Assembly (NCBI GenBank): GCA_000092065.1
Contig: CP000591.1
Origin: Ostreococcus lucimarinus
Lineage: Eukaryota
Strand: one strand, 5' to 3'
DNA length: 64,000 nt
Positions 19,650-64,000 of this stretch are shown one piece after another. The notes under the pieces are model-generated. The model did no database searches. It was not told the DNA's origin and saw only the letters and a program-made list of their open reading frames with translations. The position numbers were made by a program, and so were the translations under genes. Numbering within the stretch: the first letter of the stretch is position 1; each line of letters opens with the position of its first letter.

Positions 19650-20084
19650 ATGGTGGAAACGCGTTCGAGTCCTCGTCGCGCGCGCGCAGAAACCGCGTCA
19701 TCGCGCGCGGCGACGACGGAAACGACGACGGAAACGGCGCCAACGCCGTCGTCCACCGGTCTCATCTTGAACGTCAAAACCTGGCACGGCGTCGGCGCGT
19801 GGACGTGGGGCGCCGGCGACGTCGGTGACGTGTGTGGCATATGTCGCATCGCCTTCGACGGGTGCCCGCCGGACGCGAAGTTCCCAGGGGACGATTCTCC
19901 GGTGGTGTGGGGAAAGTGCGGGCACGCGTTTCATTTGCAGTGCATCACGAAGTGGTTGAGCGGGGCCAACGCGGAGGCGCCGAGGTGTCCGATTTGCCGA
20001 GGAGCGTGGGAGTTTAAGGAACTGGAGGGCGCGGACGCGAACGCGAACGCGAACGGGGGTCAGGGGGATGAGATGTCGACGTGA
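19650..20084 (+). CDS. APC11: anaphase-promoting complex subunit 11 (RING-H2)
   Basis: LILNVKTWHGVGAWTWGAGDVGDVCGICRIAFDGCPPDAKFPGDDSPVVWGKCGHAFHLQCITKWL...CPICRGAWEF aligns to human ANAPC11 from residue 2 onward. There is a ~45-aa low-complexity N-terminal extension. The first ATG is 19650; the track ORF started at a GTG. Confidence 0.8.
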   Translation: MVETRSSPRRARAETASSRAATTETTTETAPTPSSTGLILNVKTWHGVGAWTWGAGDVGDVCGICRIAFDGCPPDAKFPGDDSPVVWGKCGHAFHLQCITKWLSGANAEAPRCPICRGAWEFKELEGADANANANGGQGDEMST

Positions 20085-20207
20085 CGTCGTCGTGAGTTAA
20101 TTTGTTTAGCCTAGGTAGCCGTACAGTGTTTTGTAACGCGTAGTAACCTGATCGTACAGTACATCCGTCGGGGATTATTGATCTCACCGCGCGGGGTGAG
20201 TTTTGTT

Positions 20208-22562
20208 TTACTCTTTTATAATGTGTTGCCCGATCGCGGCCCAAGACGTGGGGCCCGCGACGGGACGGCCGATGGTGACGCGAGTCGCTGCTCGCTTGCG
20301 TCGCCACGAAGGAATGGATCCAGGAGCCGACTGCGGTGCCGCTCGAAACTGTTGCGATTTCTTTGGCATCACCGCCGCACCAGCTTTGGCGACATTTGGC
20401 TGTTCGTACCATATTTCAGTGTCTTCAACCTTGACAGTCTGCTTGGCGCTCTTTTTGGGTGCCGCCGCGCTCGAGCTCGTCGGCGCTTTACGTTTACTGG
20501 CTGCGGACACTTTACCACCCTTGGACGCCGCAGCCTCGGCGGCGTCGTTTTCAGCCTCCGAACGATAGCGCCGAGCGTCGTATATACCGTATCTCCGGTC
20601 TTCAACGACTCGCCCACCCGCCGCGTCTGCGCCGTCGTTTTGAGAGGGCGCCGACTTTGCCTTTGGTTTTGCCTTCGACTTTGAAGTGGGTTGCGGCCTG
20701 ATCTCCTCTTCGATCTCCTCGTCGTCGACCAAATCTTCGTCGATTTCTTCGTCGTCTTCGTCATCGACTTCGTCGTCTTCGTCTTCGTCGTCTTCGTCTT
20801 CGTCGCCATCCATGGTGAAACTCTTCTCTAAATCGTCGTCGTGGTCAAAAGCTGCCGACGTCGTCGCTTTCGCGTTTGCCGCCGCATTGTTGTGTGCGCT
20901 GACGAGTGCTTCGGCAAACTCTGCGTCTACGGCCTCCAACGCCAGGCGCGCGTGCACGACTGCGGCGTTCGCGGCTTCAAGCTTTTTGAGCTCGGTGAGC
21001 AACACGTGTTCAATTTCGTGCATGGGAGGTAACCCAGCCTCGGCGAGCACCTCGTTTGCAATCCTCACCGCGCGTTCCTCCTCATCTAAATCGTCGTCGT
21101 CCTCGTCGCTATCTACGAGATCTTCGTCGATTTCCTCATCGCTGTCGTCGTCGTGATCCGTGGCGTCTTCGTCCACCGCCGCCTTTGGCCTCTTTTCGCT
21201 CGGCTTCTTTTCGCTCGGCTTCTTAATGCCCCGTTTCACCGCTTCGTGCGCTTCTGCCGCGGCTTCAGCGGCACGAGCCACCTCTTCGTCGTCGTCTTCG
21301 TCCTCGTGCTCGCCAAAGTGCAAGTACTTGTCCCAGTCGGCGGTGTCTTCGCCCTCGCCGTCCTCGTAGTACTCATCCTCCCCGTGCGCGCCCACGAGCG
21401 CCTCGTGCACGCGCGCGCGCGCGGACGAGTACACCGCTTCCGCTTCTTCTACGACCGTCTTCATCCTCGCGAGTTCGCTCTCGGCGTGTTCGACTTCGTT
21501 CACCATGCCCGCGCGTTTCGCCTTGAGCTGGGTCACCACGGCGTCCACGCCGGCGTCGAATTTTGCCTTGGCCCCTGTCGATGGTCGACCGACGCCTGCG
21601 ATTTCTTCGTACTCATCGTCCTCGTCTTGATCATCATCGTCGTGCCTGTGCCCGAACCTGGCTTTGAGCTTCTCCTTGGCGCTCATCGTCGGCGCGCCCG
21701 CGACGTTTGTCGTTCCGCCGCCGCCCTTCTTCGGCAACGCGTCTCGACTCACCGCCATCGTTTTCTTCCCCCCCGCGCCCTTCTTCGCGCTCGACGCACT
21801 CGCGCCTTTACCCTTCTTCGCATTCACCGCCGCATTCGTCTTCCTCGCGCTCGCCGCGCTCGCAGCTTTTCCTCCCTTCGCGTTCGCCGCGCTCGCCCCC
21901 CTCGCGCCGCCCTTGTCCGCGCCGCGTCCCGCTTTCCCTCCCGTCGCGTTCGCCGCGTTCGCCGCCTTCACCGCGGCTTTATAAGGCACCTTCGCCGCCT
22001 CATCCACGCGCAAGTGTTGAAACTTGATCAAATTTCGCCACTTATCCTTCAATTGCACCCCCGTGCGCGACCTGCGTTCGCGCCGTTCGTCGTTCGCCCC
22101 TCGTCAGTCCCCGCGTCTCCCTCTCGCCTCGTCCGCGTCGTTCCCTCGCCCGCTCGACGCGCCTCGCGCGCGCTCGCGTCCCATCCCATCGCTCGTCCCG
22201 CGCCGTTCGTTCGCGCGTTCGTTCGCGCGCGTCGTTCGTTCGTTCGTTCGCTCGCTCGCGTCGCGCGCGCACCGCAACGCCGCGAATTCCGGATCATTTC
22301 GCATCTTCTCCCACGCCCCGATCCCGTGTTTCCGCACCGCGCGCTTCAGCGCCTGTTCCTCCGGTGCCTGCCAGTACCCTCGCACGCCGCTCGCCTCGCG
22401 CGCCGTCGTCGCGCCGTCGTCGCGCGCCGTCGCCGCCGCCCCTCGCTTCCCCGCGCGCTTCCTCGCGTCCTCCTTCGCGCGCTTCGCGCTCGCGCTCGCG
22501 CCGCGCGCCTTGCCGCTCGGCACGGGCGCGGCGTCGCGCGCGCCCTGGGCCTTGGCCGCCAT
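20208..22562 (-). CDS. telobox single-Myb protein with H1-like AK-rich tail and acidic coiled-coil region (TRB/SMH-like), exons 22562..22273 and 22071..20208
   Basis: Exon 1 YWQAPEEQALKRAVRKHGIGAWEKMRNDPEFAAL gives the first two helices of a telobox Myb domain. Exon 2 starts (R)SRTGVQLKDKWRNL, the telobox signature LKDKWRN. Downstream come a K/A-rich stretch (KAAVKAANAANATGGKAGRGADKGG...) and long D/E-rich segments. The 201-nt in-frame intron contains a TGA, which is why the track shows two abutting ORFs in one frame. Confidence 0.7.
22072..22272 (-). other. spliceosomal intron (predicted, 201 nt, phase 2)
   Basis: Minus-strand donor CG|GTGCGCGCGCGACGCGAGCGAGCGAACG, branch-like GGACTGACGAGG, acceptor GAACGCAG|G. 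Splicing joins DPEFAAL-R to SRTGVQLKDKWRNL and restores the telobox Myb domain. The intron carries (CGAA/CGTT)n microsatellite-like runs. Confidence 0.7.
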
Positions 22563-33260: not shown

Positions 33261-33802
33261 TTACGCGGCGCACTTCACGCGACCCGCCTTGTTGATGGCG
33301 GAGATGCGAGCGAGCGCGGCTTTCTACGAATCGAACGCGTTTCGCGCACCCGTCAGTCATCGGATTCCGTCGCCGTCGCGCGCGCGCACCGCCTCCATCG
33401 TCGCGCGCGTCCATCCCGCGCGAACGTCCTGTCCCGCGTGTTACGCGTGTCACGCGCGTTACGCGTCGCGTCCTCCTCGAAAACCCTAAACGATCGCACC
33501 TCCAAGTCCGGTCGCGCCTTCGCCGCGATCTTCACCTCGCCCGCCTGCGACTTGAACGACCCGCACAATTTCTTCCCATCGCACGTCGCCGCCGGCTTCC
33601 CCTTCCCGCCGTCGTGCTCGCGAATATCGATCGTCTTCGCGTTCGCCAGCCCGCTCGCGCGGAACGACACCTCCGCGGTCACGTTGCCCGGTTCCGCGCT
33701 GAATCGCGCGCCGTGTCCGCTCGTCGACGCGCGCGTGAACGCGTTGTGTTTCTTCGTCACCTGCCACAGGAAGTCATCGCTCGCGGGGACGTGGGAGATC
33801 AT
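33261..33802 (-). CDS. RPL28: 60S ribosomal protein eL28, exons 33802..33500 and 33323..33261
   Basis: MISHVPASDDFLWQVTKKHNAFTRASTSGHGARFSAEPGNVTAEVSFRASGLANAKT aligns to human RPL28 ([44 protein letters not shown]). The unspliced reading frame turns to low-complexity sequence after RPDLE. Splicing gives RPDLE|KAALARISAINKAGRVKCAA*, matching [20 protein letters not shown]. Confidence 0.75.
33324..33499 (-). other. spliceosomal intron (predicted, 176 nt, phase 0) containing a telobox motif
   Basis: Minus-strand donor GAG|GTGCGATCGTTTAGGGTTTTCGAG, branch-like GATGACTGACGGG, acceptor TTCGTAG|AAA. The 5' end of the intron carries TTTAGGGTTT (plus strand AAACCCTAAA at 33482..33491). Confidence 0.7.
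33482..33491 (+). promoter_or_regulatory. telobox motif AAACCCTAAA in eL28 first intron (candidate cis-element)
   Basis: Exact AAACCCTAAA lies on the plus strand (TTTAGGGTTT on the gene strand), 8 nt inside the intron of the ribosomal protein eL28 gene. In plants, telo-boxes in ribosomal-protein gene 5' regions and introns are bound by TRB proteins (established knowledge). Function here is an inference. Confidence 0.3.
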
Positions 33803-34185
33803 CGCGTTCGCGCGTTCGCGTCGCGGAGAGACGGCGCGCGGCATCGGCGCGCGGGCGACGACGCGCTGGACCCTAATCACACTCGCGCGCGGCGCCGGAC
33901 CTCGCGTCGTTTCGCGAGACGCGTCGATCGACGCGACGCGACGCCCGCGACGCGACTTCCGCGCGCGACTTCCGAGCGAATTTTCGCGATGGCGATCGAT
34001 AAATTGATGATGATCTCGGGCGCGGGCACGGTGCGCGACGACGCGAACGCGCGAACGCGCGAACGCGCAAATTTGCAAATTCGCGATTTCATCGCGACGG
34101 CGGTGCTGACGCGACGTCGTCCGCGACGCGCGCGACGACTGACGACGCGCGGGCGCGCGCGCGATAGCTGTCCTACGGCGTGCAG

Positions 34186-34581
34186 ATGAAATTCATGCCC
34201 AAAGTGGCGAGTAAGATGTACTGGAAAGAGGTGCGCGCGACGGCGCGCGCGAACGCGAACGCGAACGACCGCGATCGATCGTTCGACTGACGGTTGGGCG
34301 TCGCGCCGCAGGGCGAACGAAACAACATCGACACCGTGCAGAGCGGATGGTTGGGCACCGTGCTCTTGGGCTCGGGCGCGCTGCAAGTCATGTCCGCGCT
34401 GGACGGCGAGTGCACGAAGAACCAAATGGGCGGCGCCGCGCTCGCGTGGGCGGTGACGCTTCCGGAATACGTCGCGCAGCGCGACGACTTCAAGGGACCG
34501 ATGCTCTACGCGAACACGGCGATGGCCACCGCGCTGACCGCGGTGCTCGTCAAGTCGTACTTGGATAAGCGGGACAAGTGA
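34186..34581 (+). CDS. small two-exon protein with hydrophobic segment (unassigned), exons 34186..34230 and 34312..34581
   Basis: Exon 1 MKFMPKVASKMYWKE is followed by an 81-nt intron with the same GTGCGCGCG...ACTGACGG...CAG signature as the homology-validated introns. Exon 2 GERNNIDTVQSGWLGTVLLGSGALQVMSALDG... keeps the frame. Predicted from splice signals only. Confidence 0.4.
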
Positions 34582-55472: not shown

Positions 55473-57125
55473 CTAAACGGCCATTCCGCCCATTTTGTTC
55501 GCAGCGCCGATCGCCGCCGCGTGCGCCGCTAATACTTCCGACACCCTACCGAGATCGCTAAGTTTGACGTCGAGTTGCTTTTCTTCGTCTTTGTCCGTGT
55601 AATCGGCGCGCAAATCCTTGATTCGCACCATGTCGTTTTCCCACTCTTGCGGCGCGACGAAGACGATGTATCGAGCGCCGATACGATTGGCGTAATCAAA
55701 AGTGCTCGCTACTTTCTTCTTCGGCTCGAGAAGCATATCCACATCCGAACCTCCGGCGCGAATCATCGACGCCGCCTTCATCGCCTTGCCCTGCATGCCT
55801 TCGTTGAACGCGGCGACGACGAACTCGATCGACTTGGGAAGCTCAGGGAGCAATCCTTTATCTTTGAGCAACTCCACGATGACGCAATCGCCGAAGCCGA
55901 AACCACACGCCGGCACCTCGGTCACGGCACCGTACAAAGAGAGCAACCTATCGTAGCGACCGCCACCGCAAATGGCGCGCAACTCCCCGGCGCGGTCGAA
56001 GCCCTCGAAGACGATGCCGGTGTAATAAGCTAAACCTCGCACGACGGATGCGTCGAAAATCAGCCAATCACCGTAGCCGTAATCTTCGGCGAGCTCGAAA
56101 AGCCTCTTCAACTCATCGATGCCGGTTTGATCGGCACCCTCGCCGCAGAGCGCCTCGAGGTCGCTCACCGTCTTGCACGCCAAACACTCTACGATTTTCG
56201 CAGCCGTCTCCGCGGGTAATCCTTGCGTGTCCACGAGCTCAGCCTTGACGGCATCGGCGCCGATTTTGTCCAACTTATCCATCACGATGCACACAGGCGC
56301 AAACTTTTCCGCGGTGATTCCGTATGAATCCAACACGCTCGCCATGACCTTGCGCGAGTTCACCTTGATGCCGACGTCGGCGGACGTGATCCCGATCGAC
56401 TTGAAGAACTCGCACACCGCGAACAACAGCTCGGTTTCTGCGCTCACAGACTTGCACCCGATGATATCCATGTTCCACTGGTAGTGCTCGCGCTTACGAC
56501 CGCGCTGCGTCGTCTCGAAACGCCAGCATTGCGGAATAGAAAACCACTTCAAAGGCAACATCATCGACTGCGCGCGACCGAGTACCATGCGCGCGAGCGT
56601 CGGCGTCATCTCGGGTCGCAACGTCACCTCCACCCCATCTTGGTCCACGAACGCGTACATTTGCTGCGTAATCTCCTCGCCGGCTTTGCGTTTATAAAGC
56701 TCCTGCCTCTCGAGCACGGGCGCGTCGTATTCCTCGAACCCGGTCGCTCGCGCAGTGGCTCGAAACTTTTCGTAAAGCCATCGCTGCAAACGAAACTCTT
56801 CGGGATACCAATCGCGCGTGCCGCTGCACGCCTCGAGCTCGACCGGCGGTGTCGTCGAGCACTGCACGCTCACGACGGCGTTTTGCCCCCGCGAGCGCTG
56901 TTCGGCGGCGGCCGCTTTGGACGCTTTCGCGGCGTCCTTCGCCGCCTTCTTGGCGGCTTTTTCGGCTTCACGCTTGAGAAGTTTCTCGCTCTTTTCACCG
57001 CTCGCCGCCGCGTCCGGGGCGACAGCGGGTTCGTCGCCTTCGGTTGTCATCGCTCGCGACTCTATTCGCGCGCCGTCGATCGAATCGCCGCGGAGTGCGG
57101 GTAAACGCGCACCGACGGATGCCAT
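55473..57125 (-). CDS. HARS: histidyl-tRNA synthetase (class II) with Lys-rich N-terminal extension
   Basis: Motif 1 region GTRDWYPEE, motif 2 VTLRPEMTPTLARM, HisA/HisB regions ...RRYDRLLS.../GGGRYD, and a C-terminal anticodon-binding domain. The N-terminal KLLKREAEKAAKKAAKDAAKASK is WHEP-like. An alternative start MTTEGDE lies at 57050. Confidence 0.9.
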   Translation of the reverse strand: MASVGARLPALRGDSIDGARIESRAMTTEGDEPAVAPDAAASGEKSEKLLKREAEKAAKKAAKDAAKASKAAAAEQRSRGQNAVVSVQCSTTPPVELEACSGTRDWYPEEFRLQRWLYEKFRATARATGFEEYDAPVLERQELYKRKAGEEITQQMYAFVDQDGVEVTLRPEMTPTLARMVLGRAQSMMLPLKWFSIPQCWRFETTQRGRKREHYQWNMDIIGCKSVSAETELLFAVCEFFKSIGITSADVGIKVNSRKVMASVLDSYGITAEKFAPVCIVMDKLDKIGADAVKAELVDTQGLPAETAAKIVECLACKTVSDLEALCGEGADQTGIDELKRLFELAEDYGYGDWLIFDASVVRGLAYYTGIVFEGFDRAGELRAICGGGRYDRLLSLYGAVTEVPACGFGFGDCVIVELLKDKGLLPELPKSIEFVVAAFNEGMQGKAMKAASMIRAGGSDVDMLLEPKKKVASTFDYANRIGARYIVFVAPQEWENDMVRIKDLRADYTDKDEEKQLDVKLSDLGRVSEVLAAHAAAIGAANKMGGMAV

Positions 57126-57181
57126 CGAACGGACAGTCTAGGGTCTAGGACTGACGGAGTCTAATCATTTCAATATCAATT

Positions 57182-63660: not shown

Positions 63661-63700
63661 AAACTAGGGTTAGAAACTAGGGCTGAAAACTAGGGTTAGC
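63661..63700 (+). repeat. telomere-adjacent degenerate repeats (GAAACTAGGGTTA-like 13-mer x3)
   Basis: gaaactagggtta / gaaactagggctg / aaaactagggtta lie 155 bp proximal to the telomere array. Each has a TAGGGTT core related to the telomere unit. Confidence 0.5.
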
Positions 63701-63854: not shown

Positions 63855-64000
63855 TTTAGGGTTTAGGTTTAGGGTTTAGGGTTTAGGGTTTAGGGTTTAG
63901 GGTTTAGGGTTTAGGGTTTAGGGTTTAGGGTTTAGGGTTTAGGGTTTAGGGTTTAGGGTTTAGGGTTTAGGGTTTAGGGTTTAGGGTTTAGGGTTTAGGG
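63855..64000 (+). repeat. telomere array (TTTAGGG)n, ~21 copies, truncated by window end
   Basis: Perfect tandem tttaggg units from 63855, with one tttagg variant at 63862, to the last base of the window. The G-strand runs 5'->3' toward the end, as expected for a right-hand chromosome terminus. Confidence 0.95.

What the first reader, a model, noticed from the sequence alone, without database searches (positions are those of the whole stretch)
33482..33491. Telobox (AAACCCTAAA) inside the intron of ribosomal protein eL28
The intron of the eL28 gene begins GTGCGATCGTTTAGGGTTTTCGAG on the gene strand, an exact telomere-unit-and-a-half. In flowering plants the telo-box AAACCCTA is a recurrent cis-element in promoters, 5'UTRs and first introns of ribosomal-protein and translation genes, bound by TRB proteins. 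Finding the same motif here, with a TRB-like factor 11 kb away in the window, hints that this regulatory logic predates land plants. It may equally be chance in a 64-kb window. It is the only exact AAACCCTAA outside the telomere.
Basis: partly seen in the sequence, partly recalled or inferred. Interest (0 to 1): 0.5.

Follow-up and report, generated by a model that had tools for sequence, protein, structure and literature searches.

The report
Conserved telomere-like motif in ribosomal-protein introns
A short copy of the alga's own telomere repeat sits in the intron of a ribosomal-protein gene of Ostreococcus lucimarinus; related picoalgae keep it there, and a second ribosomal-protein gene carries one too, so it is most likely a real plant-style "telo-box" control element and not a chance match.

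Summary
The motif is real. AAACCCTAAA lies at 33481-33490, one base off the stated coordinates. On the gene strand it reads TTTAGGGTTT and starts at intron nucleotide 10 of the eL28 gene of Ostreococcus lucimarinus. An RNA-derived contig confirms the intron.

One hit in 64 kb is weak evidence (0.19 expected). Two further results rule out chance.

1. Four other Ostreococcus eL28 lineages keep the motif, two of them with one base changed, 10-22 nt into an intron that is otherwise randomised.
2. A metagenome scan for a second ribosomal-protein gene, uS11, returned 35 loci. All 16 with an intron after FNDTFV carry AAACCCTA or the variant AAGCCCTA in that intron. Neither 8-mer occurs elsewhere in those 245 kb.

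The orientation in uS11 is opposite to eL28, and the distance from the splice site differs. This favours a double-stranded DNA element over an RNA signal.

The "TRB-like" gene 11 kb away has an N-terminal telomere-type Myb domain but no detectable histone H1/H5 domain, so it is not a canonical TRB. Plant-type site II partner motifs are absent. Binding and regulatory function are untested.

It is a new member of a known kind and moderately interesting.

The parts
33481..33490 (-). Telo-box: TTTAGGGTTT on the gene strand (AAACCCTAAA on +), one telomere unit plus three bases, beginning at intron nucleotide 10
   Evidence: Conserved in orthologues:
33477..33493 (-). Conserved 17-mer TCGTTTAGGGTTTTCGA, shared exactly with the eL28 intron of a second Ostreococcus clade (about 79% protein identity)
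   Evidence: longest common substring is 17 nt, reached in 3 of 2000 dinucleotide shuffles. The rest of the intron is at random identity (0.52 against 0.49 for shuffles)
33500..33802 (-). eL28 exon 1 (ATG at 33802-33800, 101 codons)
33324..33499 (-). The single eL28 intron, 176 nt, GTGCGA...TTCGTAG
   Evidence: An RNA-derived contig (L001) joins 33500 to 33323. The public protein model is identical to the spliced product
33261..33323 (-). eL28 exon 2 (KAALARISAINKAGRVKCAA plus stop)
33352..33356 (-). Branch-point-like CTGAC. Apart from the splice sites and the telo-box it is the only other conserved island of the intron
   Evidence: GACTGACG is present in all lineages whose intron 3' end was recovered
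33870..33876 (-). Second telomere-like heptamer, TTAGGGT on the gene strand, 68 nt upstream of the ATG. Not conserved in orthologues, so of doubtful relevance
20208..22562 (-). The 'TRB-like' gene. Exon 1 is 22562-22273, the intron is 22272-22072, and exon 2 runs to the stop at 20208. It has an N-terminal telomere-type Myb domain (..DPEFAALRSRTGVQLKDKWRNLIKF) followed by a basic and acidic low-complexity tail. It is a candidate reader only
63856..64000 (+). Terminal telomere array (TTTAGGG)n. It shows that the telo-box equals this organism's own telomere unit

Best explanation
The TTTAGGGTTT in the eL28 intron is a functional, selected cis-regulatory DNA element of the plant telo-box type. Shown: in Ostreococcus and in Micromonas-like relatives, ribosomal-protein genes carry a copy of the organism's telomere unit, or the one-base variant AAGCCCTA, inside an early intron 158-325 bp downstream of the start codon. 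Inferred: the element is read as double-stranded DNA by a telomere-repeat-type single-Myb protein. The Myb gene at 20208-22562 is one candidate. Also inferred: the element helps to set or co-ordinate the high, growth-linked transcription of ribosomal-protein genes. These genomes have intergenic spacers of only about 200 bp, so the intron may serve as space for the enhancer.
For: 1. The motif is exact and equals the telomere unit at the end of the same window. 2. It is a phylogenetic footprint in eL28. Five lineages (window, L009, L002-7, L024-26, L008; 77-90% protein identity) keep TTTAGGGTTTT, TTTAGGGCTTTT or TGTAGGGTTTT 10-22 nt from the 5' splice site, with indels in the spacer. The remainder of the intron is at shuffled-sequence identity between the three clades that are divergent enough to be informative. 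3. An independent gene shows the same thing. A scan for uS11 gave 35 loci, and 16 of the 16 that have the intron after FNDTFV carry AAACCCTA (groups A and B) or AAGCCCTA (groups C and D) 59-80 nt into it. There is no other copy of either 8-mer on either strand in 245 kb, and no AAGCCCTA in the window. Group C matches the window's tetranucleotide profile at r = 0.96-0.97, so it is probably the same or a sister species. 4. The uS11 variant AAGCCCTAA is the reverse complement of the variant in the L009 eL28 intron, TTAGGGCTT, so the same variant recurs in unrelated genes. 5. Orientation is opposite in the two genes (G-strand on the sense strand in eL28, C-strand in uS11), and the distance to the splice site differs (10-22 nt against 59-80 nt). 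This fits a double-stranded DNA site and not an RNA signal. 6. Seventeen uS11 loci from other GC-rich eukaryotes lack any telomere-like hexamer near the gene, so the result is not an artefact of the gene or of base composition. 7. A protein with a telomere-type Myb domain is encoded in the window. Its best matches among solved structures are zebrafish Terfa, human TRF1 and TRF2 and plant TBP1. 8. In plants, telo-boxes mark most ribosomal-protein genes and are more frequent in the first two introns than in later ones (PMC3022908; PMC3212954; PMC1794593). TBX enrichment has been reported for Micromonas commoda promoters.
Against: Only two ribosomal-protein families could be tested, so there is no genome-wide enrichment figure. 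The element lies 150-325 bp inside the gene, further downstream than the usual plant position of about -60 to +180 from the transcription start. The plant partner motif, site II (TGGGCY), is absent within 400 bp either side of the ATG in the Ostreococcus-like loci. No canonical TRB (Myb + H1/H5 + coiled coil) was found, and published phylogeny places the origin of TRB in streptophytes. A more distant GC-rich alga has the eL28 intron at the same codon without the motif. No binding, chromatin or expression data were available. The assignment of uS11 groups A, B and D to Mamiellales rests on composition and marine sample origin only.
Confidence: 0.6

Rival explanations
1. It is a chance occurrence or a neutral relic: a short interstitial telomere repeat left by telomerase-mediated repair or slippage, with no function.
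For: A single 8-mer hit in 64 kb has an expectation of 0.19. The second telomere-like heptamer upstream of the ATG is not conserved. A distant alga lacks the motif in the homologous intron.
Against: The motif is retained in five eL28 lineages while the surrounding intron is randomised. It recurs in the uS11 intron in four lineages with no background copies in 245 kb. On the gene strand, TTTAGGG occurs about twice per 128 kb of window strand, so the chance of one in the first 30 nt of an intron is roughly 4e-4 per lineage.
Confidence: 0.04
2. It is an RNA-level signal in the pre-mRNA. Candidates are an intronic splicing enhancer or silencer (a G-triplet or U-rich site, or an hnRNP-A1/Gbp1-type UAGGG site) or an autoregulatory site bound by eL28 itself.
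For: In eL28 the motif lies only 10-22 nt downstream of the 5' splice site, always with the G-strand in the transcript, and it is the only U-rich stretch there. From general knowledge, ribosomal-protein genes often autoregulate through their introns, and hnRNP A1 and algal Gbp1 bind UAGGG-type RNA.
Against: uS11 carries the reverse complement in its transcript (AAACCCUA) at 59-80 nt from the splice site, so one RNA-binding reader cannot serve both genes. Two other introns in the window lack any such element, so it is not a general splicing requirement. No Rfam family matches in the intron. An exact match to the telomere unit would be a coincidence under this model.
Confidence: 0.1
3. It is a real double-stranded DNA element but not a ribosomal-protein regulon switch of the plant kind. 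It could be a binding site for an unrelated factor that recognises CCCTA with an A-run, or a chromatin or boundary element (nucleosome positioning, Polycomb recruitment, an internal promoter) that happens to sit in these two genes.
For: The AAGCCCTA variant breaks the telomere register. Site II partners are absent. The position is unusually far into the gene, at +313 to +325 from the ATG in eL28 and in three of the four uS11 groups, which hints at a chromatin-phase constraint. From general knowledge and the listing, plant telo-boxes also recruit PRC2 and other complexes.
Against: Both genes in which it was found are ribosomal-protein genes, and none of the roughly 150 other genes sampled carries it. 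The exact form equals the organism's own telomere unit. uS11 group D has the motif at +158, so the spacing is not fixed.
Confidence: 0.2

Closest known systems
Plant telo-box (AAACCCTA[A]), the short interstitial telomere motif of ribosomal-protein, EF1A and ribosome-biogenesis genes in Arabidopsis, rice, poplar, moss and Selaginella
   Same: Identical sequence, equal to the organism's TTTAGGG telomere unit. Located in the 5' part of ribosomal-protein genes downstream of the transcription start. Plant telo-boxes are also more frequent in the first two introns than in later ones (PMC3022908; PMC3212954; PMC1794593).
   Different: Here it is intronic and 158-325 bp past the ATG, not in the 5'UTR or proximal promoter. 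There is no associated site II or TEF element. A recurrent variant, AAGCCCTA, is tolerated. The host is a prasinophyte chlorophyte, outside the lineages where enrichment has been documented. Function is untested.
TBX time-of-day element reported as over-represented in Micromonas commoda promoters (Michael et al., Wolffia genome preprint, 10.1101/2020.03.31.018291)
   Same: Same 7-mer core (AAACCCT) in a member of the same algal order, linked by orthology to night-phased protein-synthesis genes of Arabidopsis.
   Different: That analysis used upstream promoters and expression phases transferred from Arabidopsis. It did not report intronic sites, named genes or cross-species conservation. The present evidence is gene-level footprinting in introns.
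Telomere-factor control of ribosomal-protein genes in fungi: Rap1 in Saccharomyces, and Tbf1 binding TTAGGG-like sites in Candida and other ascomycetes (own knowledge, not checked here)
   Same: A telomere-repeat-binding Myb or SANT protein doubles as the organiser of the ribosomal-protein regulon through telomere-like motifs at those genes.
   Different: The fungal sites are upstream promoter elements, and the proteins are not orthologous to plant TRBs. Common ancestry or convergence cannot be decided from these data.
TRB (telomere repeat binding) proteins of plants, with Myb + H1/H5 + coiled-coil architecture
   Same: The window gene at 20208-22562 has an N-terminal Myb domain with the telomere-type third-helix signature LKDKWRN and the DPEF..L..R motif. 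Its best structural-sequence matches are telomere-binding Myb domains.
   Different: No linker-histone (H1/H5) domain was detected by Pfam. The remainder is low-complexity basic and acidic sequence. Published phylogeny finds TRBs no earlier than Klebsormidium (PMC10167121).
Intron-mediated enhancement and intron retention in highly expressed genes of compact genomes
   Same: Ostreococcus shows an excess of introns in highly expressed genes (PMC2367439). A promoter-proximal intron carrying a conserved element fits that pattern.
   Different: Intron-mediated enhancement signals in plants are diffuse and act in the transcript orientation. Here there is one discrete motif that occurs in either orientation.

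Membership tests
Plant-type telo-box cis-element | Sequence AAACCCTA(A), identical to at least one unit plus one base of the organism's own telomere repeat | tested here: met
   AAACCCTAAA at 33481-33490. The telomere at 63856-63996 is (TTTAGGG)n.
Plant-type telo-box cis-element | Located at the 5' end of the gene (proximal promoter, 5'UTR or first introns) | tested here: met
   It is in the first and only intron of eL28, 313 bp after the ATG. In uS11 it is in the first or second intron at +158 to +324. This is further downstream than the plant mode of about -60 to +180 from the transcription start.
Plant-type telo-box cis-element | Over-represented in ribosomal-protein and translation genes relative to the rest of the genome | tested here: inconclusive
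   Two of two ribosomal-protein families examined carry it. There are no other copies in the 63.8-kb window body or in 245 kb of fetched loci. The other translation-related genes in the window (eIF3L, HisRS, Bmt2, Trm1) lack an exact copy. A genome-wide test was not possible.
Plant-type telo-box cis-element | Evolutionary conservation in orthologous genes | tested here: met
   Five eL28 lineages and four uS11 lineages keep it in introns that are otherwise scrambled.
Plant-type telo-box cis-element | Topological association with site II (TGGGCY) or TEF boxes | tested here: not met
   No site II motif lies within 400 bp either side of the ATG in any eL28 locus or in uS11 groups B, C and D. The two copies in group A lie in coding sequence.
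Plant-type telo-box cis-element | Bound by TRB or Pur-alpha type proteins, and activates expression in cycling cells | not testable with these tools
   Needs gel-shift, DAP-seq or ChIP data and reporter assays.
TRB protein family (for the 'TRB-like factor') | N-terminal single Myb domain of the telomere-binding class | tested here: met
   Pfam Myb_DNA-binding at residues 61-109, E = 1.3e-6. The top solved-structure matches are Terfa, TRF1, TRF2 and TBP1.
TRB protein family (for the 'TRB-like factor') | Central histone H1/H5 globular domain | tested here: not met
   No linker-histone family was reported by Pfam at E <= 0.01 over the whole 715-aa product. The region after the Myb domain is Ala/Lys/Gly-rich low complexity.
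TRB protein family (for the 'TRB-like factor') | C-terminal coiled coil | not tested
   Heptad-like helical stretches are visible by eye, but no predictor was run.
Cytosolic ribosomal protein eL28 (host gene) | Ribosomal_L28e domain, and identity with an annotated eL28 | tested here: met
   PF01778 with E = 4e-18. 100% identical to XP_001420551.1 of O. lucimarinus.

The most novel reading that the evidence does not exclude
In Mamiellales the ribosomal-protein regulon is wired through telomere-repeat elements housed in introns and read by a telomere-type Myb protein that is not a TRB. The link between telomere factors and ribosome production would then date to the base of the green lineage, or have arisen again as in fungi. 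The need to host these elements would be one reason why ribosomal-protein genes keep introns in the most compact free-living eukaryotic genomes.
Probability: 0.35. Interest if true: 0.65.

Novelty: new member of a known kind. Interest (0 to 1): 0.5.

Why it matters
Telo-boxes are the signature promoter element of plant ribosomal-protein genes. Published work ties their enrichment to land plants and the origin of their TRB readers to streptophytes. Conserved copies in ribosomal-protein introns of Ostreococcus and Micromonas-like algae push the association deeper into the green lineage, in organisms with no canonical TRB detected here. Ostreococcus has about 8,000 genes and can be transformed, so it offers a minimal system for three questions: how a telomere-repeat reader co-ordinates ribosome production, why introns persist in highly expressed genes of compact genomes, and whether the plant and fungal (Rap1/Tbf1) arrangements are homologous or convergent.

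Tried and rejected
1. Other ribosomal-protein genes in the window. Pfam scans of about 47 ORFs found none. Small intron-split genes could have been missed.

2. eL28 relatives in viral contigs: none. uS11 and uL14 patterns in genome contigs and viral contigs: none.

3. Fishing for Ostreococcus uS19 with an O. tauri N-terminal peptide taken from a phosphoproteome supplement. The 44-aa query returned only first-exon ORFs of plants and unknown eukaryotes. The full-length masked query was swamped by animal and plant sequences. The uS19 loci fetched from those hits (L012-L023) come from intron-rich, non-Mamiellales genomes and say nothing about this question. A second proteome supplement holds no peptide sequences.

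4. A snoRNA or other structured RNA in the intron: no Rfam match, and no conservation beyond the motif and the branch site.

5. Plant-style site II partner motifs: absent.

6. A fixed distance from the ATG. The values cluster at +313 to +325 in eL28 and in uS11 groups A-C, but uS11 group D has +158, so spacing is not a rule.

7. Telomere-like hexamers near uS11 in 17 other GC-rich eukaryotes: none. These loci served as a negative control.

8. Literature searches for telo-box, AAACCCTA or TTTAGGG together with Ostreococcus found no prior description of this element. The Ostreococcus footprinting paper by Piganeau et al. 2009 is not held.

Full report
**What is at the coordinates**

The window is the end of a chromosome of Ostreococcus lucimarinus. 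The spliced eL28 product is 100% identical to XP_001420551.1, and the window ends in a (TTTAGGG)n telomere at 63856-63996.

The eL28 gene lies on the minus strand:
- ATG at 33802
- exon 1 at 33802-33500 (101 codons)
- one 176-nt intron at 33499-33324 (GTGCGA...TTCGTAG)
- exon 2 at 33323-33261

The intron is real. A Logan contig assembled from RNA (L001) joins 33500 directly to 33323, and the product matches Pfam Ribosomal_L28e.

The motif AAACCCTAAA is at 33481-33490 on the + strand, one base lower than the finding states. It is the only AAACCCTA or AAACCCTAA outside the telomere.

**Is it more than chance?**

On its own, barely. Dinucleotide-preserving shuffles give 0.19 expected 8-mers and 0.10 expected 9-mers per window. 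That it falls in the only ribosomal-protein gene found in the window is suggestive, but that observation was made after the fact (about 47 ORFs scanned). The hexamer ACCCTA is itself rare: 6 seen against about 26 expected from base composition. Two of the four non-subtelomeric copies flank eL28 exon 1.

**Test 1: orthologous eL28 introns**

A protein search found exon-1 read-through ORFs from metagenomes and sequencing runs at 77-90% identity, and their contigs were fetched. On the gene strand the introns begin as follows.

| Source | Protein identity | Start of intron |
|---|---|---|
| window | - | GTGCGA TCG TTTAGGGTTTT CGAGG |
| L009 | 90% | GTACGTGGGCGCCGTGATGCG TTTAGGGCTTTT GCG |
| L002-L007 | 79% | GTGCGTGTGGAATCG TTTAGGGTTTT CGAAAGG |
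| L024-L026 | 79% | GTACGTGAGGAATCG TTTAGGGTTTT CGAGAGG |
| L008 | 77% | GTGCGTGTGGACTCG TGTAGGGTTTT CGAAAGG |

L002, L008 and L024 belong to one clade whose introns still align (79% identity), so they are not independent of one another. The window, L009 and that clade are mutually unalignable outside the motif:
- The rest-of-intron identities are 0.52, 0.64 and 0.51. Shuffled sequences give 0.49, 0.65 and 0.53.
- The window and the L002 clade nevertheless share the exact 17-mer TCGTTTAGGGTTTTCGA, which was reached in 3 of 2000 shuffles.
- The spacer between the splice site and the motif differs by indels (9, 15 and 21 nt).

Only the splice sites, the motif and a CTGAC branch-site island are conserved. 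A much more distant GC-rich alga (L010, L011) has an intron at the same codon but no motif.

**Test 2: a second ribosomal-protein gene**

No other ribosomal-protein gene is in the window, and attempts to reach Ostreococcus uS19 failed. I therefore spent the single metagenome scan on a GC3-biased DNA pattern for the universal uS11 (RPS14) peptide PYAAMLAAQDVA. It returned 35 loci totalling 245 kb.

Sixteen loci have an intron after ..FASFNDTFV. Splicing there restores the conserved FNDTFV-HVTDLSGKET sequence, and the group C product matches Pfam Ribosomal_S11 with E = 1e-45. All sixteen carry a telo-box or a one-base variant 59-80 nt into that intron, with the C-strand on the sense strand.

| Group | Loci | GC | Motif in context |
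|---|---|---|---|
| A | L027, L048, L050, L061 | 0.58-0.60 | GCAAACCCTAAACAA |
| B | L032, L038, L039, L040, L045, L055, L057 | 0.65-0.70 | TCCAAACCCTAGACG |
| C | L031, L037, L041, L052 | 0.60-0.65 | GATGAAAGCCCTAGTG |
| D | L054 | 0.64 | GTGAAAGCCCTAACG |

Further points:
- Across all 245 kb, on both strands, there is no other AAACCCTA or AAGCCCTA. The window has no AAGCCCTA at all.
- Group C has a tetranucleotide profile correlated at r = 0.96-0.97 with the window, so it is probably the same or a sister species. Groups A, B and D correlate at about 0.87-0.89, the same as a second Ostreococcus species does. Their assignment to Mamiellales is an inference from composition and marine sample origin.
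- The variant AAGCCCTAA is the reverse complement of the variant in the L009 eL28 intron (TTAGGGCTT). The same departure from the telomere unit therefore recurs in unrelated genes.
- The 17 loci without this intron come from other GC-rich eukaryotes and have no telomere-like hexamer within -900 to +300 of the gene. They serve as a negative control.

**DNA or RNA?**

Within each gene family the orientation is constant, as expected from common descent. Between families it is opposite: the transcript carries UUUAGGG in eL28 and AAACCCUA in uS11. The distance from the 5' splice site also differs, 10-22 nt against 59-80 nt.

One RNA-binding reader cannot explain both genes, but a protein that binds double-stranded DNA can. 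Two other introns in the window have no such element, so it is not a general splicing signal. No Rfam family matches in the intron.

The position relative to the ATG is +313 in the window eL28, about +322 to +325 in the other eL28 lineages, and +317 to +324 in uS11 groups A-C. It is +158 in group D, so the spacing is suggestive but not fixed.

**The "TRB-like factor"**

A gene on the minus strand (ATG 22562, intron 22272-22072, stop 20208) encodes an N-terminal Myb domain..WQAPEEQALKRAVRKHGIGAWEKMRNDPEFAALRSRTGVQLKDKWRNLIKF... Pfam reports Myb_DNA-binding plus one weak sub-threshold HTH_CHD1_Hrp3 match over the same stretch. The best solved-structure matches are telomere-binding Myb domains: Terfa, TRF1, TRF2 and plant TBP1.

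No H1/H5 domain was detected. The rest of the protein is basic and acidic low-complexity sequence with helical stretches. It is therefore a telomere-type Myb protein and a plausible reader, but not a member of the TRB family as defined. Published phylogeny places that family no earlier than Klebsormidium. Its distance of 11 kb from eL28 has no bearing on function.

**Comparison with what is known**

In Arabidopsis and rice, telo-boxes lie mainly in 5'UTRs. They show a gradient along transcription, with more copies in the first two introns than in later ones. They mark 83% of rice ribosomal-protein genes and are paired with site II or TEF elements (PMC3022908).

Enrichment has been shown down to moss and Selaginella. 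It was not found in the brown alga Ectocarpus, and the authors argued that the associated coordination is specific to land plants (PMC3212954). A preprint reports TBX (AAACCCT) over-representation in Micromonas commoda promoters, using expression phases transferred from Arabidopsis.

The present element shares the sequence, the host gene class, the location downstream of the transcription start and the conservation. It differs in four ways:
- it is strictly intronic and further from the start
- it lacks site II partners
- it tolerates the AAGCCCTA variant
- it occurs where no canonical TRB was detected

I found no description of it in the searchable literature. One relevant paper, Piganeau et al. 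2009, is not held. I file the element as a new member of a known kind.

**Verdict**

- Observation: confirmed, with coordinates one base off.
- Interpretation: partly supported. The element is conserved and recurs in ribosomal-protein genes of prasinophyte algae. The TRB label fails a defining feature, and regulation is inferred, not shown.
- Confidence: about 0.85-0.9 that it is a selected element, and about 0.6 that it works as a telo-box-type DNA enhancer or co-ordinator of ribosomal-protein genes.
- Decisive tests: a genome-wide count in the reference Mamiellales genomes, binding assays with the Myb protein, and intron-mutant reporters in O. tauri.

Noticed in passing
window 33816-33838 (minus strand); L031 about 35 nt upstream of the uS11 ATG; L002 and L009 upstream of the eL28 ATG: Ribosomal-protein genes share a pyrimidine 'TOP-like' motif 25-35 nt upstream of the ATG. 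The copies are GCGCGCCGTCTCTCCGCGACGCG (window eL28), GCGCGCCGTCTTTCGACGACGCG (uS11 group C), GACGCCTCTTCGACGC (L002) and GCGGTCTCTTCTCGACGC (L009). Micromonas-like uS11 loci have CCCTCTTTCTGTGCGC...CAGCAGACACAACAGAA. It may be a start-site or TOP element of the ribosomal-protein regulon.
   Followed up: partly
L027, L055, L031 (uS11 groups A-C): Exon 1 of uS11 is the ATG alone, and an intron of about 110-135 nt begins immediately after the start codon. Group D lacks this intron.
   Followed up: partly
window 33870-33876: A second telomere-like heptamer (TTAGGGT on the gene strand) lies 68 nt upstream of the eL28 ATG. ACCCTA is strongly depleted in the window (6 seen, about 26 expected), and two of the four non-subtelomeric copies flank eL28 exon 1. 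The upstream copy is not conserved in orthologues.
   Followed up: yes
window 57139-57144: GACCCTAG (an ACCCTA core within CTAGACCCTAGAC) lies 14 nt upstream of the ATG of a histidyl-tRNA synthetase gene (55473-57125, minus strand). This is another translation gene, but the match is only to the hexamer core.
   Followed up: partly
eL28 window +313; eL28 L002 about +322; L009 about +325; uS11 groups A-C +317 to +324; group D +158: In most lineages of both genes the motif sits about 315-325 bp after the ATG, although exon and intron structures differ. Group D breaks the pattern. This could reflect a constraint of chromatin phase, or coincidence.
   Followed up: partly
L032, L038, L045, L055 (uS11 group B), about 138 nt upstream of the scan pattern: The next intron of group B carries a second AAACCCT heptamer (GCGAAACCCTGTC). 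Group A has GAGAAACCCGTA at the same place.
   Followed up: no
L010, L011 (TARA metagenome scaffolds): The eL28 gene of an unidentified, very GC-rich alga has an intron at the same codon position as Ostreococcus but no telomere-like motif. The intron position is therefore older than the element, or the element was lost.
   Followed up: partly
window 34236-34309 and L001: The RNA-derived contig L001 fuses three neighbouring genes, which shows overlapping transcripts in this compact genome. It also shows that a short intron of about 74 nt is spliced out of the divergent neighbour of eL28.
   Followed up: no
window 20000-22000: There is a strong AT skew (-0.38) here. It corresponds to the acidic and Lys/Ala-rich low-complexity coding region of the Myb gene.
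   Followed up: partly
window 63665-63700: Degenerate telomere-like repeats (AACCCTA on the minus strand at 63665 and 63691) lie about 160-190 bp inside the perfect terminal array.
   Followed up: no
L016, L017 position 6375: In an unidentified intron-rich eukaryote (GC 55%), AAACCCT lies in the first intron of the uS19 gene. A heptamer at this frequency is not significant.
   Followed up: no
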